Of a stretch of DNA of 64,000 nt, positions 43,256 through 53,868 are shown in pieces; position 1 is the first letter of the stretch; each line of letters begins with the position of its first letter. Both the position numbers and the translations under genes were made by a program. The notes beneath the pieces are model-generated. The model was not told the origin of the DNA. It saw nothing but the letters and a program-made list of their open reading frames with translations, and did not search any database. This DNA comes from Verrucomicrobiia bacterium (GTDB lineage Bacteria; Verrucomicrobiota; Verrucomicrobiia; Palsa-1439), in contig DATJWQ010000012.1 of the NCBI GenBank assembly GCA_035501175.1, positions 14,424 to 78,423 of the forward strand, given 5' to 3'.

Positions 43256-44761
43256 GTGCGCGAGTGGTGTCATGCCATTATCGGCCTTGTACTTGTAACA
43301 GCGCCCGTCAGCGCAGCTACCTTCTATGTCGCCCCCACGGGCAACGACGCAAACTCTGGCGCCATTGACGCTCCATTATCCAACATCGCCGTGGCCGTCA
43401 ATCTTGTTGGGGCCGGCGACACCATCTATCTCCGGGGGGGGACGTACTCCTACTCGACCACGATCAACCTCACAAATGCCGGTACGCCCGCCGCCCCCAT
43501 CAAACTCTGGGCCTACCCGAACGAACATCCGTTCATCGATTTTTCCTCGATGGCCGACAACGACGCCAATCGCGGGTTTCGCATCACCACGAACGCGGCA
43601 TCGGGACTTGGCGGTTGTTATTGGTACATCAAGGGGCTGGAAGTGTACCGGGCCGGCGACAACGGGATGAAGATCGAGGGCAGTGGCAACATCATCGAGT
43701 TCTGTTCGTTCCACCATAACCACGATAGCGGCCTGCAGATCGGCCTCGGCGACAGCGACCTGGATCTCCCGTTCCGTGTCTGCTCCAACCAGATTATCAA
43801 CTGCGATTCCTACCTGAATTACGATCCGCGGCATGGCGGTGGAAATGCCGATGGCTTCTGCTGCAAGCTTCATCCGGGACAGGGCAACGTGTTCCGCGGC
43901 TGTCGTTCGTGGGAAAACTCCGATGATGGCTGGGACCTCTACAAAAACCAATACGATGTCACGCTCGATAATTGCTGGACGTGGCACAATGGCGACCCCG
44001 CCAGCTTCGGAACGAATTCAGCCGGCAACGCCGAAGGCTTCAAGCTCGGCGGTGATACGGATTTCTACGGCCCGCGCATGGTGACGCGATGCATCGCCTT
44101 CATGAATCATTTCGGCGGCTCGGGCGCCGGCAAGGCCTTCCACCAAAACGATCATCAGGGCCCGATCACGCTGCTCAACTGCCTGTCGTTCTCCAATAAC
44201 TACGATTACGCCCTCAACAACAGCGGCGGCACGCACACCGTGGAGAATTGCGTCGGCTTCGATCCGTATGGTCCGGACCACAAGCTTGTTTCCAGCAACA
44301 GCACCAGCAGTGACATTTATATCAATAACAGTTGGAACCTGCCGGTCACGCCCAACATCGCGGATTACGTCGTTCTCACCGAAGACGCCGCCAAAGCGCC
44401 GCGCCAGGCCGACGGCAGTTTGCCCAACAACGGCTTTGCCCGGCTGGTCGCCGGCAGCGATTTGATCGACAAAGGCGTGAACGTCGGGTTGCCGTTCAAC
44501 GGCCCGGCACCGGATCTTGGCCCGTTCGAGTTTTCATTCCCGCGTATGGTGCTGATCGATGCCATCTCGATGACCGACACGGGCCTCAACTTGCACGTGA
44601 CCGGACTTACCAGCGACGGACCCATTGTCGTGCTTGCCTCGCCCGATCTTGCGGCGTGGACGCCGATTTTCACCAACCCGCCCGTCACGGGAGGCTGGAC
44701 GTACGTCGACCCCAACGCGGCGAATATGACACAGCAGTTCTATCAGGTAGAGGAACAATAG
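43256..44761 (+). CDS. Secreted right-handed beta-helix (pectate-lyase-fold) polysaccharide lyase-like protein 1 with C-terminal ~70-aa module
   Basis: Signal peptide. FYVAPTGNDANSG...GAGDTIYLRGGTYSY N-terminal signature of beta-helix lyases, repeated NxDG/GFKLGG turns, and a C-terminus ending QQFYQVEEQ. Confidence 0.6.
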   Translation: MREWCHAIIGLVLVTAPVSAATFYVAPTGNDANSGAIDAPLSNIAVAVNLVGAGDTIYLRGGTYSYSTTINLTNAGTPAAPIKLWAYPNEHPFIDFSSMADNDANRGFRITTNAASGLGGCYWYIKGLEVYRAGDNGMKIEGSGNIIEFCSFHHNHDSGLQIGLGDSDLDLPFRVCSNQIINCDSYLNYDPRHGGGNADGFCCKLHPGQGNVFRGCRSWENSDDGWDLYKNQYDVTLDNCWTWHNGDPASFGTNSAGNAEGFKLGGDTDFYGPRMVTRCIAFMNHFGGSGAGKAFHQNDHQGPITLLNCLSFSNNYDYALNNSGGTHTVENCVGFDPYGPDHKLVSSNSTSSDIYINNSWNLPVTPNIADYVVLTEDAAKAPRQADGSLPNNGFARLVAGSDLIDKGVNVGLPFNGPAPDLGPFEFSFPRMVLIDAISMTDTGLNLHVTGLTSDGPIVVLASPDLAAWTPIFTNPPVTGGWTYVDPNAANMTQQFYQVEEQ

Positions 44762-44772
44762 GAATACCATAT

Positions 44773-51265: not shown

Positions 51266-51312
51266 TAAGAAATCCAATTGAATCCAAAGAAACCGTCAAC
51301 GCCTAACAACCC

Positions 51313-53868
51313 GTGAGGTACGTCATGAAAGCATTGATCGCAGTTGCCGTCAGCGTCGCGTTGTTGCAGAACGCCACGGCGCAGTTGCTGGTGGAGCATT
51401 TCAATTACAATAACGGGAGCCTGGGAGCATCCGGCATCGGGGACACGGTTTGGACCGCGGGCGACAGTCCCAGCACGGCCCTGATCGTCACCAACGCGGC
51501 CGCGTTGACCAATTCGTCCCTGTCCGGTATTTCCGGGAGCGGGCTGCGGTATAACGGCGGCACCTTCAAGAAGAAGGCCGCCACGTTTACCGCCCAATCC
51601 AGCGGAAGTGTGTACGTCTCGTTCCTGCTCAACATTCAGACCGCGCCCAGCACGGTCAAAGCCTTTGTGTATTTGCACAACAGCACCTCGGCGACGAGTT
51701 CGCCGGAACTCGGGATCTTTCTGAACGGAAGCAATATCGGCATCGGCAAGGGCGTTTCCAGCCCGGCCATCAGTACGGCCTTGAGCGCGGGCACGCACTT
51801 GATCGTGGCCAGCTATACCTTCCAATCCGGCGCCGATCAGGTCGCCCTCTGGGCCGATCCGTCATCGCTCGGTGATAACAACAATGTTCCAGCGTCGACA
51901 ATTTCGACGACTGCCGGCACTGATGGGTCGTCGCTGTCCACGATCTTCTTGAATCATGCCGCCTCGCAAACGCTGTACGTCGATGAAGTTCGCCTCGGCA
52001 CGAGTTGGGCCGATGTAACGCCGACCAGTGGCGGACCGCCGCCCCCGCCTCCTTCGACGAATGGCGTGGTGATCACGTCACTGTCGTTCACATCCGGCGG
52101 GGATATGTTCTTGCAAGGCACAGGCGGCACGCCGGGCAGCAACTTCGAAGTCGAAACTTCCGCGGACATGACCATCCCGTTCACCAATTGGCTGCCCTCG
52201 GGAAATTTCAGGTTCGATTCCCTGGGCAATTTTGGCGTCACCAGTCCCGTCACACCAGGCACTCCGATTCGTTTCTTCACGATCAATGTGGGCGGCACGA
52301 ATTCCATCCCGTTGAGTGTGCCCATTATCCTGACACAGCCGCAGGACACCACCAACAGCGCCGGAACGACCGCAACTTTCACAATCGGCGTCAGCGGCTC
52401 TCCGCCGTTTGGCTATCAATGGTATCTGAACAGTGTCACACCGTTGGGGAGCGGCACGAACTCGACCTTGACGCTCAACAACGTGCAGACAACCGACTCG
52501 GGCGGCTATTCAGTGATCGTGTCCAACACGGCCGGCTCCGTCACCAGCGTCGTGGCGCAGTTGCTCGTGACCAACGTGTTCTCGGCTCCGATCATCATTA
52601 CGCAGCCGCAGGATCAGACCGTCACGGTGAGTAACAACGCTTCCTTTAGCGTGGTCGCCATCGGTACGCAGCCGTTGTCCTACCAGTGGTTCGTCAACAC
52701 CAACACGCCCATCGATAATGCCACGAACTCCACCTTGGTGCTCACCGACGTGCAGTTCACGGACGCGGGTGTGTACTCGGTGACGGTCAACAACAACCTC
52801 GGCGCGACCAACAGCAACTTCGTCACGCTTACGGTCAATCCACCATCCGCCCCCAACTTCAATCAAGTCGGTTACGCGGACTACAACTTCGCGCTGACCG
52901 GCGGCACGGGCGGCCCGACGGTGGACGTGTACCAGTTGTCCGACATGGCCGCCTACTACGGCAACGACACGGGTAAGGCGCCCAACACCCCGGCGGTTCT
53001 GCGGATTCACGGCACCGTCGCTCTGCGGCCCAATGGAGACACGTACTTCGGCAATAACAAGACGATCATCGGCGTGGGCACCAATGCCGCGGTCATCGGC
53101 GATATCGGCCTCATGTATTGCACCAATGTCATTGTGCAAAACCTCGACATCTCCAACAGTGGCAGCATCGGCGATGCGGATGGAATCACCTGCAAGTACT
53201 ATCCCACCCACATCTGGATCGATCATTGCACGGTCCATGATACCCAGGACGGCATCATCGACGTCACCCGCGGCGGCGACTTCGTCACGGTGTCCTGGTG
53301 CAAGATGTTCTACACAACGCCGACCGGTCACCAGGATGTCAACCTCATCGGCGGCGATGACGGCGACTCAGCCAGCGACATGGGGTCTCTCCATGTGACG
53401 TTCCATCACAATTGGTGGGGTGCTCTGTGCCAGGAGCGCCTGCCATCGGTGCGTTATGGACGCGTGCACGTGTTCAATAACTATTACACTGCGACAGGCA
53501 ACAACTATTGCGCCCGCACACGCCTGTACGCCGAGGTGTTGGTCGAGGCCAATTGGTACCAGAACGTCCAGAACCCGTGGGAACTGCTGGTCACCAGTGG
53601 CGCCACCGGTAAGTTACTGGCCCAATACAACAACGTCGGTTATCTCGACACCTCGTACGGCGTGACCTGGGTGAATGGATGGTATCCCGGCCAATCGCTG
53701 ATTCCGGGCACTGACACGTTGACTCCGTCCTCGTGGAACCCGGCGAACGTGGTTGACCCCGACCCGTCCAATGTGCCGCCGTACGCGTACACGTTGGATA
53801 ACGCAGCAGACGTGCCCGGTCTCGTCACCAACAATGCCGGCGCAGGGAAGGGACCGTTCGCACAATGA
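51313..53868 (+). CDS. Secreted PL1-family pectate lyase (paralog) with the same modular N-terminal architecture
   Basis: HIWIDHCTV, DGIIDVT, and LPSVRYGRVHVFNNYY. The N-terminal domain is about 85% identical to gene 4. Confidence 0.7.
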   Translation: MRYVMKALIAVAVSVALLQNATAQLLVEHFNYNNGSLGASGIGDTVWTAGDSPSTALIVTNAAALTNSSLSGISGSGLRYNGGTFKKKAATFTAQSSGSVYVSFLLNIQTAPSTVKAFVYLHNSTSATSSPELGIFLNGSNIGIGKGVSSPAISTALSAGTHLIVASYTFQSGADQVALWADPSSLGDNNNVPASTISTTAGTDGSSLSTIFLNHAASQTLYVDEVRLGTSWADVTPTSGGPPPPPPSTNGVVITSLSFTSGGDMFLQGTGGTPGSNFEVETSADMTIPFTNWLPSGNFRFDSLGNFGVTSPVTPGTPIRFFTINVGGTNSIPLSVPIILTQPQDTTNSAGTTATFTIGVSGSPPFGYQWYLNSVTPLGSGTNSTLTLNNVQTTDSGGYSVIVSNTAGSVTSVVAQLLVTNVFSAPIIITQPQDQTVTVSNNASFSVVAIGTQPLSYQWFVNTNTPIDNATNSTLVLTDVQFTDAGVYSVTVNNNLGATNSNFVTLTVNPPSAPNFNQVGYADYNFALTGGTGGPTVDVYQLSDMAAYYGNDTGKAPNTPAVLRIHGTVALRPNGDTYFGNNKTIIGVGTNAAVIGDIGLMYCTNVIVQNLDISNSGSIGDADGITCKYYPTHIWIDHCTVHDTQDGIIDVTRGGDFVTVSWCKMFYTTPTGHQDVNLIGGDDGDSASDMGSLHVTFHHNWWGALCQERLPSVRYGRVHVFNNYYTATGNNYCARTRLYAEVLVEANWYQNVQNPWELLVTSGATGKLLAQYNNVGYLDTSYGVTWVNGWYPGQSLIPGTDTLTPSSWNPANVVDPDPSNVPPYAYTLDNAADVPGLVTNNAGAGKGPFAQ

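What the first reader, a model, noticed from the sequence alone, without database searches (positions are those of the whole stretch)
43256..53868. Tandem array of five secreted beta-helix polysaccharide lyases built from shuffled modules
Genes 1 and 2 are beta-helix plus a 70-aa C-terminal module. Gene 3 combines the N-terminal lectin-like domain, the 70-aa module, an Ig-like domain, and the gene-1-type beta-helix. Genes 4 and 5 combine the same N-terminal domain, the 70-aa module, three Ig-like repeats, and a bona fide PL1 pectate lyase (vWIDH, RxPxxR-NN motifs). Genes 4 and 5 are about 85% identical N-terminally but diverge in the catalytic domain, indicating recent duplication and domain swapping. 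All five genes are co-directional with 8-50-nt spacers, so they likely form one operon or regulon for pectin or rhamnogalacturonan degradation. The array ends at a tRNA-Leu gene.
Basis: partly seen in the sequence, partly recalled or inferred. Interest (0 to 1): 0.6.

Follow-up and report, generated by a model that had tools for sequence, protein, structure and literature searches.

The report
Five-gene modular pectate lyase cluster
A soil-type Verrucomicrobia genome fragment carries five back-to-back genes for secreted pectin-cutting enzymes (three PL9, two PL1) built from shared accessory modules; it is a real but fairly ordinary enzyme cluster whose only new parts are two accessory domains that no database names.

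Summary
Five co-directional genes (43256-53868, + strand) encode signal-peptide proteins with right-handed beta-helix lyase domains. Genes 1-3 are PL9 (Pel9A-like), with all Ca2+ ligands and the Lys base conserved. Genes 4-5 are PL1, with the Asp triad and both Arg of RxPxxR conserved.

Corrections:
- Gene 2 starts at 44773.
- Genes 4 and 5 have two Ig repeats, not three.
- The tRNA-Leu lies 373 nt downstream.
- The canonical PL1 Lys is replaced (Leu in gene 4, Asp in gene 5). All but one of the 120 closest homologues also lack a basic residue there.

The shared N-terminal domain (about 213 aa) has no Pfam or NCBIfam match. It is predicted to be a ConA-like lectin jelly roll and belongs to a large family (5,399 clusters at E<=1e-10). 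The 70-aa module is an FN3/Ig-like sandwich, also unannotated.

The same array occurs in two other Verrucomicrobiia MAGs with different modules at positions 2 and 5, so module shuffling is real. The duplications are old: synonymous sites are saturated. Only the gene 4/gene 5 N-domain was exchanged later, by gene conversion or replacement.

An operon is plausible but untested. This is a new member of a known kind, of modest interest.

The parts
43015..43255 (+). 241-nt intergenic region upstream of gene 1; likely promoter or operator region of the cluster
   Evidence: Contains AT-rich palindromes GTGATA-N14-TATCAC (43084-43109) and TTGAC-N5-GTCAA (43169-43183), and AGGAG 13 nt before the GTG start. 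The consensus promoter scan found nothing here. The function is inferred.
43256..44761 (+). Gene 1 (501 aa): signal peptide (aa 1-20), PL9 beta-helix (aa 21-426; nt 43316-44533), C-terminal 70-aa module (aa 431-501; nt 44546-44758)
   Evidence: PF22842 E=1e-19; PelN model 209 bits (below the equivalog cut-off of 740); Pel9A 1ru4 E=5e-58. D199, D223, D224, D227 and K263 align with Pel9A D209, D233, D234, D237 and K273.
44773..46227 (+). Gene 2 (484 aa): signal peptide, PL9 beta-helix (aa 26-407; nt 44848-45993), C-terminal 70-aa module (aa 413-484; nt 46009-46224)
   Evidence: ATG 11 nt after the g1 stop; PF22842 E=5e-21; D189, D213, D214, D217 and K254 conserved; 43% identical to g1 over the full length.
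46235..48745 (+). Gene 3 (836 aa): signal peptide, ConA-like N-domain, Pro-rich linker, 70-aa module, one Ig, PL9 beta-helix
46295..46972 (+). Gene 3 N-terminal ConA-like (lectin-fold) domain, aa 21-246
   Evidence: 43% identical to the g4 and g5 N-domains; no Pfam hit even at E<=10; 95% identical to its L004 orthologue.
47006..47233 (+). Gene 3 internal 70-aa FN3/Ig-like module, aa 258-333
   Evidence: Module HMM E=1e-27; hhalign of the internal against the C-terminal module profiles gives probability 95.6%, E=1.2e-8.
47252..47500 (+). Gene 3 Ig-like (Ig_3/I-set) domain, aa 340-422
   Evidence: PF13927 E=5.5e-9; PF07679 E=1.2e-6.
47516..48742 (+). Gene 3 PL9 beta-helix, aa 428-836
   Evidence: PF22842 E=9e-20; 48% identical to g1 over 420 aa; D601, D625, D626, D629 and K666 conserved.
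48794..51265 (+). Gene 4 (823 aa): signal peptide, N-domain, module, two Ig, PL1
48851..49489 (+). Gene 4 ConA-like N-domain, aa 20-232
   Evidence: AF2 model pLDDT 87.7, pTM 0.88. Best Foldseek PDB matches are the calreticulin lectin domain, legume and L-type lectins, GH131 and Cip1 (E from 3e-6, TM 0.4-0.6). 90% identical to the g5 N-domain.
49520..49753 (+). Gene 4 internal 70-aa module, aa 243-320
   Evidence: AF2 model pLDDT 90.5, six-stranded beta sandwich; only weak FN3/Ig-like Foldseek hits (E>=9e-3).
49778..50293 (+). Gene 4, two Ig-like (Ig_3/I-set) repeats, aa 329-411 and 417-500
   Evidence: PF13927 E=4e-21, 2 stretches; the repeats are 42% identical to each other.
50312..51262 (+). 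Gene 4 PL1 pectate-lyase beta-helix, aa 507-823
   Evidence: PF00544 E=1.5e-21; 3zsc E=5e-43. D604, D626, D630, R686 and R691 are present; the Lys position is L655.
51313..53868 (+). Gene 5 (851 aa from GTG 51313; 847 aa from ATG 51325 as in the public gene call): signal peptide, N-domain, module, two Ig, PL1
51382..52020 (+). Gene 5 ConA-like N-domain, aa 24-236 (g4-type)
   Evidence: 90% aa and 83% nt identity to g4. Four-fold-site identity is 0.65 against 0.39 at saturation. It is closer to g4 of the same genome than to L004 gene 5 (bootstrap 0.99).
52060..52299 (+). Gene 5 internal 70-aa module, aa 250-329
   Evidence: Module HMM E=2e-26; only 29% identical to the g4 module.
52321..52836 (+). 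Gene 5, two Ig-like repeats, aa 337-419 and 425-508
   Evidence: PF13927 E=1e-21, 2 stretches; PDB 9ncf_S and 9c2d_S Ig-like domains E=2e-26 and 5e-23.
52855..53865 (+). Gene 5 PL1 pectate-lyase beta-helix, aa 515-851
   Evidence: PF00544 E=9e-32; 7bbv E=2e-27. D621/D623, D646, D650, R709 and R714 are present; the Lys position is D675.
53869..54030 (+). Structured region after the gene 5 stop (GC-rich hairpin at about 53879-53904 and a long hairpin with 13-bp perfect arms, 53921-53933 / 53996-54008); possible 3' end of the transcript
   Evidence: MFE -59.2 kcal/mol, z = -2.5 against shuffles; no U-tract and no Rfam match. The function is inferred.
54242..54330 (+). tRNA-Leu(TAA), a downstream neighbour and not part of the array
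   Evidence: ARAGORN; Rfam RF00005 63 bits. No tRNA is found in the fetched stretches around the syntenic arrays L003 and L004.

Best explanation
This is a conserved five-gene cluster of a Verrucomicrobiia bacterium. It encodes exported, Ca2+-dependent beta-elimination lyases for polygalacturonate-type pectin. Three are PL9 enzymes that use a Lys base (g1-g3). Two are PL1 enzymes that use an Arg base (g4, g5).

Each catalytic beta-helix is joined to non-catalytic beta-sandwich modules:
- a small FN3/Ig-like module of about 75 aa, present in all five genes;
- I-set-type Ig spacers in g3-g5;
- in g3-g5, an N-terminal ConA-like domain of about 213 aa that most likely binds a glycan, either targeting the substrate or keeping the enzyme near the cell surface.

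The five genes are probably co-transcribed from the 241-nt region upstream of g1, to give a set of lyases with different fine specificities.

The array is old. It has evolved by exchange of modules between its members: the gene 5 N-domain was overwritten by the gene 4 type, and the catalytic and accessory modules at positions 2 and 5 differ between related genomes.

Shown here: gene structure, family membership, catalytic-residue conservation, fold predictions, synteny and module differences, and the synonymous-site pattern. Inferred: secretion, substrate, glycan binding by the N-domain, and co-transcription.
For: - **PL9 (g1-g3).** PF22842 E=1e-19 to 5e-21 and Pel9A (1ru4) E=5e-58. All four Asp ligands and the Lys base align in g1-g3 (residue roles from PMC10992409).
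- **PL1 (g4, g5).** PF00544 E=1.5e-21 and 9e-32; 3zsc E=5e-43. The Asp triad and both Arg are conserved, and are conserved in 117-120 of the 120 closest homologues.
- **Export.** All five N-termini have a basic residue, a hydrophobic core and a small-residue cleavage motif.
- **N-domain.** The AF2 model has pLDDT 87.7 and matches lectin and ConA-like structures. The family has 5,399 clusters at E<=1e-10. Its catalytic partners are mainly PL1 (13 of 66 proteins scanned), PL9 (4 of 66) and CE8 (1 of 66). Stand-alone forms end in PEP-CTERM.
- **70-aa module.** It is found in all five genes, and the C-terminal and internal forms are homologous (hhalign probability 95.6%).
- **Synteny.** Two other MAGs carry the same array with tight spacing but different modules.
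- **Spacers.** 7-48 nt within the array, against 241 nt upstream and 373 nt downstream.
- **Background.** Cultivated Limisphaerales encode PL1 and PL9 and grow on polygalacturonan (PMC13608581).
Against: - There are no activity, expression or localisation data.
- The PL1 domains lack the Lys (BsPel K247) that reviews describe as highly conserved and needed for catalysis.
- No pectin transporter, regulator, methylesterase or uronate-catabolism gene lies in the 64-kb window.
- The promoter and terminator scans were uninformative.
- In a wider sample, the N-domain family is mostly linked to non-catalytic surface-protein features (T9SS tails in 14 of 56, Ig in 12 of 56), so a pectin-specific role is not established.
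- PL9 and PL1 also contain enzymes for other uronic-acid polymers.
Confidence: 0.75

Rival explanations
1. The lyases act on a non-plant acidic polysaccharide (microbial or algal uronic-acid exopolysaccharide or capsule) rather than on plant pectin. On this view the cluster serves to forage or remodel biofilm matrix.
For: PL1-like VexL (a Vi-antigen lyase, 6fi2) is among the PDB hits (E about 1e-13 to 1e-14). The PL1 clade lacks the Lys that contacts the galacturonate carboxylate. No other pectin-utilisation genes are nearby.
Against: The best matches are all pectate lyases: Pel9A 5e-58, PelN model 209 bits, Thermotoga PelA 5e-43. The nearest relatives carrying the same N-domain include a CE8 pectin methylesterase. 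The rhamnogalacturonan lyase 5olq scores far lower than Pel9A.
Confidence: 0.12
2. The PL1 domains of genes 4 and 5 are catalytically weak or inactive binding modules, because the conserved Lys is lost. Only the three PL9 enzymes would cut.
For: The Lys (BsPel K247) is replaced by Leu in g4 and Asp in g5. A review describes Lys247 as a prerequisite for catalysis (PMC10992409).
Against: The substitution is shared by all but one of the 120 closest homologues, which come from several phyla. All of them keep the Asp triad and both Arg invariant. That pattern indicates purifying selection on an active site, not decay. The catalytic base Arg is intact.
Confidence: 0.1
3. The 90% identity of the g4 and g5 N-domains reflects only very strong purifying selection since the original duplication, not a later gene conversion or domain replacement.
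For: dN is very low in the N-domain: 10% amino-acid differences against 17% nucleotide differences. The g4-type N-domain is also 83-87% conserved between genomes.
Against: Four-fold degenerate sites, which selection on the protein does not protect, are 65% identical in the N-domain but at saturation (36-50% against 34-39% expected) in every other g4/g5 segment. In L003 the position-5 gene has a different N-domain type, only 44% identical. Within-genome paralogues are closer than cross-genome pairs (bootstrap 0.77-0.99).
Confidence: 0.08
4. The five genes are not one operon but separately transcribed units (at most a regulon), for example with internal promoters in the 47-48-nt gaps before genes 4 and 5.
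For: The two longer gaps (48 and 47 nt) exist. Sequence similarity between the g4 and g5 copies begins inside the intergenic DNA before each gene (repeat D1 starts at 48745 and 51276), which could carry duplicated signals. There is no expression evidence.
Against: The g1-g2 and g2-g3 gaps (11 and 7 nt) are too short for promoters. The number of predicted terminators inside the array is not above chance (14 found against 11.2 expected). Order and tight spacing are conserved in three genomes.
Confidence: 0.3

Closest known systems
Pel9A / PelL and PelN of Dickeya (CAZy PL9; PDB 1RU4)
   Same: Ten-turn right-handed beta-helix. The full catalytic domain aligns (E=5e-58). The four Asp Ca2+ ligands and the Lys273 base are conserved in g1-g3.
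   Different: Identity is far below the NCBIfam PelN equivalog cut-off (about 200-209 bits against 740). The genes here add a C-terminal FN3/Ig-like module (g1, g2) or N-domain + module + Ig (g3). The host is Verrucomicrobiia, not an enterobacterial plant pathogen.
Thermotoga maritima PelA (pectate trisaccharide-lyase, PL1; PDB 3ZSC) and other PL1 pectate lyases (BsPel 1BN8, PelC, VdPelB 7BBV)
   Same: PL1 beta-helix, vWIDH motif, Asp triad for Ca2+, and RxPxxR with the catalytic Arg.
   Different: The HDK Lys (BsPel K247) is replaced and preceded by a 5-residue insertion. There is one extra residue before RxPxxR and an HHNWW motif. No solved structure found here belongs to this Lys-less clade.
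Clostridium thermocellum cellulosomal PL1A-dockerin-CBM6 and PL1B-dockerin-CBM35-PL9 (PMC4319962)
   Same: A bacterium deploys PL1 and PL9 lyases together, each joined to non-catalytic beta-sandwich carbohydrate-binding modules. The L004 version of gene 5 even carries a CBM6/35 next to PL9.
   Different: There are no dockerins. The modules are an unannotated ConA-like domain, an FN3-like module and I-set Ig repeats. The enzymes are encoded as five separate tandem genes.
ConA-like lectin/glucanase superfamily (calreticulin lectin domain, legume and L-type lectins, LamG-type domains such as PF13385 fused to PL1)
   Same: The predicted jelly-roll fold of the N-domain matches these structures. LamG (PF13385) + PL1 fusions occur among homologues of the g4 PL1 domain (P0188, P0231).
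   Different: There is no sequence-profile match to any Pfam or NCBIfam family. TM-scores are only 0.4-0.6. Ligand and binding site are unknown.

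Membership tests
CAZy PL9 (genes 1-3) | Sequence homology to the Pel9A-type right-handed beta-helix over the whole catalytic domain | tested here: met
   PF22842 at 71-76 bits against a cut-off of 25.2; 1ru4 E=5e-58 over residues 21-425 of g1.
CAZy PL9 (genes 1-3) | Ca2+-binding Asp209, Asp233, Asp234, Asp237 and catalytic base Lys273 (Pel9A numbering) | tested here: met
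   g1 D199, D223, D224, D227, K263; g2 D189, D213, D214, D217, K254; g3 D601, D625, D626, D629, K666. Residue roles are from PMC10992409.
CAZy PL9 / PL1 | Formal dbCAN or CAZy family and subfamily assignment | not testable with these tools
   No dbCAN or CAZy library is available. Pfam, NCBIfam and PDB were used as proxies.
NCBIfam PelN equivalog (NF041899) | Score at or above the curated cut-off (740 bits) | tested here: not met
   197-209 bits. These are PL9 relatives of PelN, not PelN orthologues.
CAZy PL1 (genes 4-5) | Homology to the Pectate_lyase_4 domain and to solved PL1 structures | tested here: met
   PF00544 at 77 and 111 bits against a cut-off of 24; 3zsc E=5e-43, 7bbv E=9e-29.
CAZy PL1 (genes 4-5) | Ca2+-binding Asp triad (BsPel D184, D223, D227) and the vWIDH motif | tested here: met
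   g4 D604, D626, D630 with WIDH at 615; g5 D621/D623, D646, D650 with WIDH at 635.
CAZy PL1 (genes 4-5) | Catalytic Arg (BsPel R279 / PelC R218) and the second Arg of RxPxxR (R284) | tested here: met
   g4 R686 and R691; g5 R709 and R714. Both are invariant in 120 of 120 homologues.
CAZy PL1 (genes 4-5) | Conserved Lys (BsPel K247; 'HDK', 20 residues after DGxxD) | tested here: not met
   g4 has L655 (HDL) and g5 has D675 (HQD), after a 5-residue insertion. The 120 closest homologues have F 73, L 23, N 11, Y 7, D 5, R 1. This is a clade-wide trait. It does not remove PL1 homology, but it departs from the canonical active site.
Ig-like I-set / Ig_3 domains | Pfam match above the gathering score; number of repeats | tested here: met
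   One repeat in g3 and two each in g4 and g5. The 'three repeats' in the finding are not found.
ConA-like lectin/glucanase fold (N-domain) | Jelly-roll beta-sandwich similar to lectin structures | tested here: met
   AF2 pLDDT 87.7. Foldseek matches to calreticulin, legume and L-type lectins, E=3e-6 to 1e-4, TM 0.4-0.6. This is a prediction, not an experiment.
ConA-like lectin / CBM (N-domain) | Carbohydrate binding | not testable with these tools
   Needs binding assays. Only the association with PL1, PL9 and CE8 partners was seen.
Known Pfam or NCBIfam family for the N-domain and the 70-aa module | Any profile match | tested here: not met
   No meaningful hit even at E<=10: only DUF4982 at E=0.14 and EF-hand_5 at E=0.25, on short stretches. 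Full-length g4 and g5 give no NCBIfam hit.
Operon | Co-transcription of the five genes | not testable with these tools
   Only indirect evidence: gaps of 7-48 nt, a conserved order in three genomes, and no excess of terminator-like sites.

The most novel reading that the evidence does not exclude
Three readings remain open. First, the roughly 213-aa N-terminal ConA-like domain may be the founding example of a large carbohydrate-binding or cell-surface-retention module family that is still unnamed. It has at least 5,399 sequence clusters, spans Verrucomicrobiota and T9SS-bearing (Bacteroidota-type) proteins, has PEP-CTERM-anchored stand-alone forms, and its main catalytic partners are pectin-active enzymes. 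Second, the PL1 domains may belong to a widespread clade that performs beta-elimination without the canonical Lys, which would be a mechanistic variant with no solved structure. Third, the 70-aa module, when C-terminal, could be a sorting or anchoring signal.
Probability: 0.3. Interest if true: 0.5.

Novelty: new member of a known kind. Interest (0 to 1): 0.3.

Why it matters
Verrucomicrobiia are abundant soil polysaccharide degraders with few characterised enzymes. This cluster gives a compact, conserved set of five candidate pectate lyases for expression. It also gives a natural experiment in module exchange: the same array in three genomes carries different accessory and catalytic modules. 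Finally, it points to two accessory domains and a Lys-less PL1 clade that current family databases do not describe. If the N-domain proves to be a pectin-binding module, it would annotate thousands of currently unannotated domain occurrences. None of this changes how pectate lyases are understood, so the importance is modest.

Tried and rejected
- **Exact look-up of g5.** From the GTG start it found nothing, because the public gene call starts at the ATG four codons later. The look-up with g4 worked.
- **Pfam at E<=10 on the isolated N-domains and modules.** Nothing usable.
- **Promoter and terminator scan.** Counts were at or below the shuffle expectation.
- **Rfam over 42900-54500.** It found only the tRNA, plus a sub-threshold CRISPR-DR37 hit (32 bits against 40) inside the g4 coding sequence with no repeat array. 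I dismissed that hit as chance.
- **Word-indexed search with the 70-aa module.** It returned only 10 short fragments. They sufficed for a profile but not for a census.
- **Cluster-member look-up of PL1 homologues.** It gave no organism names or characterised enzymes, so I could not place a biochemically tested enzyme in the Lys-less clade.
- **Genomic-island idea (array next to a tRNA).** Rejected. The array lies 5' of the tRNA, GC content is only slightly lower than in the flanks, and the syntenic arrays have other flanks with no tRNA in the stretches fetched.
- **Further copies of the modules in the window.** A search for more copies of the N-domain or the module found none.
- **Second C-terminal module.** Homology between the 70-aa module and the second C-terminal module ('...ARYYRIRLVP') is inconclusive: hhalign probability 52-60% over 20 residues.
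- **Antisense ORFs inside the array** (for example 47222-48664 on the minus strand). I treat these as by-products of high GC. The public gene call has none.

Full report

Yes. Window 43256-53868 holds five co-directional + strand ORFs:

| Gene | Coordinates | Length |
|---|---|---|
| g1 | 43256-44761 | 501 aa |
| g2 | 44773-46227 | 484 aa |
| g3 | 46235-48745 | 836 aa |
| g4 | 48794-51265 | 823 aa |
| g5 | 51313-53868 | 851 aa |

- The longest ORF for g2 begins at 44332 and overlaps g1. The ATG at 44773, 11 nt after the g1 stop, opens a typical signal peptide and is the likely start.
- An identical public metagenome contig (ENA ERZ27256576, 51.7 kb) carries independent gene calls of 501, 484, 836, 823 and 847 aa. 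The last one uses the ATG at 51325.
- Spacers within the array are 11, 7, 48 and 47 nt. There are 241 nt before g1 and 373 nt between the g5 stop and tRNA-Leu(TAA) at 54242-54330.
- All five N-termini look like Sec signal peptides, for example MKKILVPLVVGMLFTSTAHA|AVQ in g3. This is read from the sequence; no predictor was available.

**2. Catalytic domains**

*Genes 1-3 are PL9.*
- They match Pfam PF22842 (Pel9A-like beta-helix) at E=1e-19 to 5e-21.
- They match the NCBIfam PelN model at 197-209 bits. That is far below the equivalog cut-off of 740, so they are relatives of PelN, not orthologues.
- g1 aligns with Pel9A (PDB 1ru4) over residues 21-425 at E=5e-58. The PL9 rhamnogalacturonan lyase 5olq scores only 1e-22.
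- Pel9A binds Ca2+ through Asp209, Asp233 and Asp237, and its base is Lys273 (PMC10992409). These residues, plus the adjacent Asp234, are conserved in all three genes: g1 D199, D223, D224, D227, K263; g2 D189, D213, D214, D217, K254; g3 D601, D625, D626, D629, K666.

*Genes 4 and 5 are PL1.*
- They match PF00544 at E=1.5e-21 and 9e-32.
- The g4 domain matches Thermotoga PelA (3zsc) at E=5e-43.
- The vWIDH motif, the Asp triad (g4 D604, D626, D630) and both Arg of RxPxxR (g4 R686, R691; g5 R709, R714) are present.

*One departure from the canonical PL1 site.*
- The Lys that lies 20 residues after DGxxD ('HDK'; BsPel K247) is described as highly conserved and needed for catalysis. It is Leu in g4 (HDL) and Asp in g5 (HQD), and a 5-residue insertion precedes it.
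- This is not decay of these two genes. The 120 closest homologues come from metagenome records labelled Verrucomicrobia, Planctomycetes/Phycisphaerales, Spirochaetes, Bacillota, Sumerlaeota and Polyangiaceae, plus proteins with T9SS tails. At this position they have F 73, L 23, N 11, Y 7, D 5, R 1. All of them keep the DGxxD Asp pair and both Arg, and 117 of 120 keep the first Asp.
- Genes 4 and 5 therefore belong to a large PL1 clade with a modified active site. No solved structure turned up for it.

**3. Accessory modules**

*(a) N-terminal domain (g3 aa 21-246, g4 aa 20-232, g5 aa 24-236).*
- It has no Pfam or NCBIfam match, even at E<=10.
- A profile of 16 sequences was searched against 1.84 billion cluster representatives. 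It found 9,785 proteins at E<=1e-3, 5,399 at E<=1e-10 and 769 at E<=1e-30, often in multi-copy giant proteins.
- Of the ten closest multi-domain relatives, six carry PL1, two carry PL9, one carries a CE8 pectinesterase and one carries CBM6/35.
- In a further 56 relatives, the commonest partners were T9SS sorting tails (14), Ig (12), PL1 (7) and PL9 (2).
- Stand-alone forms of about 270 aa end in PEP-CTERM.
- AlphaFold2 gives a confident beta-sandwich (pLDDT 87.7, pTM 0.88). Its best PDB matches are the calreticulin lectin domain, legume and L-type lectins, GH131 and Cip1 (E from 3e-6, TM 0.4-0.6).
- 'Lectin-like' is thus supported at the fold level. Ligand binding is an inference.

*(b) The 70-aa module.*
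- It is present in all five genes. It sits at the extreme C-terminus of g1 and g2 (ending FYQVEEQ* and FYQVQEQ*) and is internal in g3-g5.
- Profiles of the two forms align with hhalign probability 95.6%, E=1.2e-8.
- AF2 predicts a six-stranded sandwich (pLDDT 90.5) with only weak FN3/Ig-like matches (E>=9e-3).

*(c) Ig_3/I-set repeats.*
- There is one in g3 and two in each of g4 and g5. The finding's 'three' is a miscount.

**4. Evolution**

- g4 and g5 are 90% identical in protein (83% in DNA) across the N-domain. Identity then falls abruptly to 29% in the module and 51-58% in the Ig and PL1 parts.
- Four-fold degenerate sites are 65% identical in the N-domain, against 39% expected at saturation. 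They are at saturation in all other g4/g5 segments and in the g1-g3 PL9 comparisons.
- So the genes themselves are ancient paralogues, and only the N-domain was exchanged later.
- Two genome-resolved relatives carry the same array with orthologues 60-87% identical in protein: L004 (Verrucomicrobiia MAG SMAG_U14747) and L003 (Verrucomicrobiae MAG MFD05512.bin.1.230).
- In L003, gene 5 has a different N-domain type, 44% identical to the g4 type.
- In L004, gene 5 is N-domain + module + 3 Ig + CBM6/35 + an InlB-B-like repeat + PL9 instead of PL1. L004 gene 2 has two PKD repeats and another C-terminal module.
- The g4 and g5 N-domains are closer within a genome than between genomes. Nucleotide distance is 0.171 in the window and 0.147 in L004, against 0.185-0.211 across genomes. 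Bootstrap support is 0.77-0.99. This pattern fits repeated gene conversion or independent replacement.
- Module shuffling is therefore real, but 'recent duplication' is not.

**5. Context**

- The flanks are housekeeping genes. Upstream are B12/radical-SAM enzymes and a fused ketoacyl synthase. Downstream are Fpg, a hypothetical protein and the SUF system.
- The rest of the window holds TPR proteins, a peptidase, a nuclease and similar genes.
- There are no pectin transporters, regulators or catabolic genes.
- The arrays in L003 and L004 sit in other contexts and have no tRNA in the stretches fetched. The tRNA is a neighbour, not part of the system.
- No further copy of either module exists in the window.
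- Rfam finds only the tRNA.
- A stable structure follows the g5 stop (z = -2.5).

**6. Most likely function**

This is an exported set of Ca2+-dependent beta-elimination lyases for homogalacturonan. There are three Lys-base PL9 enzymes and two Arg-base PL1 enzymes. They are probably co-transcribed, and non-catalytic sandwiches space and target them.

Cultivated Limisphaerales encode PL1 and PL9 and grow on polygalacturonan (PMC13608581). Clostridium thermocellum likewise pairs PL1 and PL9 with CBM6/35 (PMC4319962).

The rivals are listed with their odds in the rival-explanations section: a non-plant substrate, inactive PL1 domains, selection rather than conversion, and separate transcripts.

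**7. Novelty and score**

- Modular PL1 and PL9 pectate lyases are well known, and automatic pipelines already label homologues 'pectate lyase'.
- What is not yet described is the ConA-like N-domain family, the small FN3-like module and the Lys-less PL1 clade. None of these is specific to this locus.
- Verdict: a correct observation, a partly correct interpretation, a new member of a known kind, interest about 0.3.

Noticed in passing
window 129-1697 (+) and 16080-17495 (+); L004 3574-5736: Two other predicted secreted proteins in the window end in a different C-terminal module of about 90 aa, finishing '...ARYYRIRLVP*' (or '...AKYYRIRLVR*'). One is a PKD-containing protein and the other is an S1/P1 nuclease + PKD. 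The same module ends gene 2 of the L004 array. Its relation to the 70-aa module is inconclusive (hhalign probability 52-60% over 20 residues). Small beta-sandwich domains ending in FYRV or YYRIR, recurring at the C-termini of unrelated passengers, could be a sorting or anchoring signal.
   Followed up: partly
window 50756-50770 (g4, GHDLC, aa 652-656) and 53326-53340 (g5, GHQDV, aa 672-676): The canonical PL1 Lys (BsPel K247) is replaced in g4 and g5. None of the 120 closest homologues, from several phyla, has Lys there and only one has a basic residue (Arg), while the Asp triad and both Arg stay invariant. This is a large PL1 clade with a modified active site, and no solved structure was found for it.
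   Followed up: partly
window 53869-54030: A stable RNA structure follows the gene 5 stop. It has a GC-rich hairpin and a long hairpin with 13-bp perfect arms (AATGGGCGCAGCC / GGCTGCGCCCATT). MFE is -59.2 kcal/mol, z = -2.5. There is no U-tract and no Rfam match.
   Followed up: partly
window 43084-43109 and 43169-43183: Two palindromes lie in the 241-nt region upstream of gene 1: GTGATA-N14-TATCAC and TTGAC-N5-GTCAA. They are possible regulator sites. Conservation in L003 and L004 was not checked.
   Followed up: no
proteins P0007 and P0024 (metagenome fragments found with the N-domain profile): P0007 joins a g4-type N-domain directly to the middle of a PL9 helix. P0024 joins an N-domain to the last roughly 50 residues of a PL1. 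These are either recombination or deletion products between array paralogues or assembly chimeras caused by the repeated modules.
   Followed up: no
L003 9941-12253: The gene 3 orthologue in L003 is only 770 aa: it aligns to residue 744 of 836, and a 245-nt gap follows. This may be a frameshift, a truncation or an assembly error.
   Followed up: no
window 39312-43014: Directly upstream of the array lie a B12-binding radical-SAM gene and a long fused double ketoacyl-synthase gene (766 aa in the public call), next to another radical-SAM gene on the opposite strand. This is an unrelated lipid or polyketide-type cluster.
   Followed up: no
window 50444-50478 (-): A sub-threshold Rfam hit to CRISPR-DR37 (32.4 bits against a gathering score of 40, E=0.007) lies inside the g4 coding sequence. 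There is no repeat array, so it is judged a chance match.
   Followed up: yes
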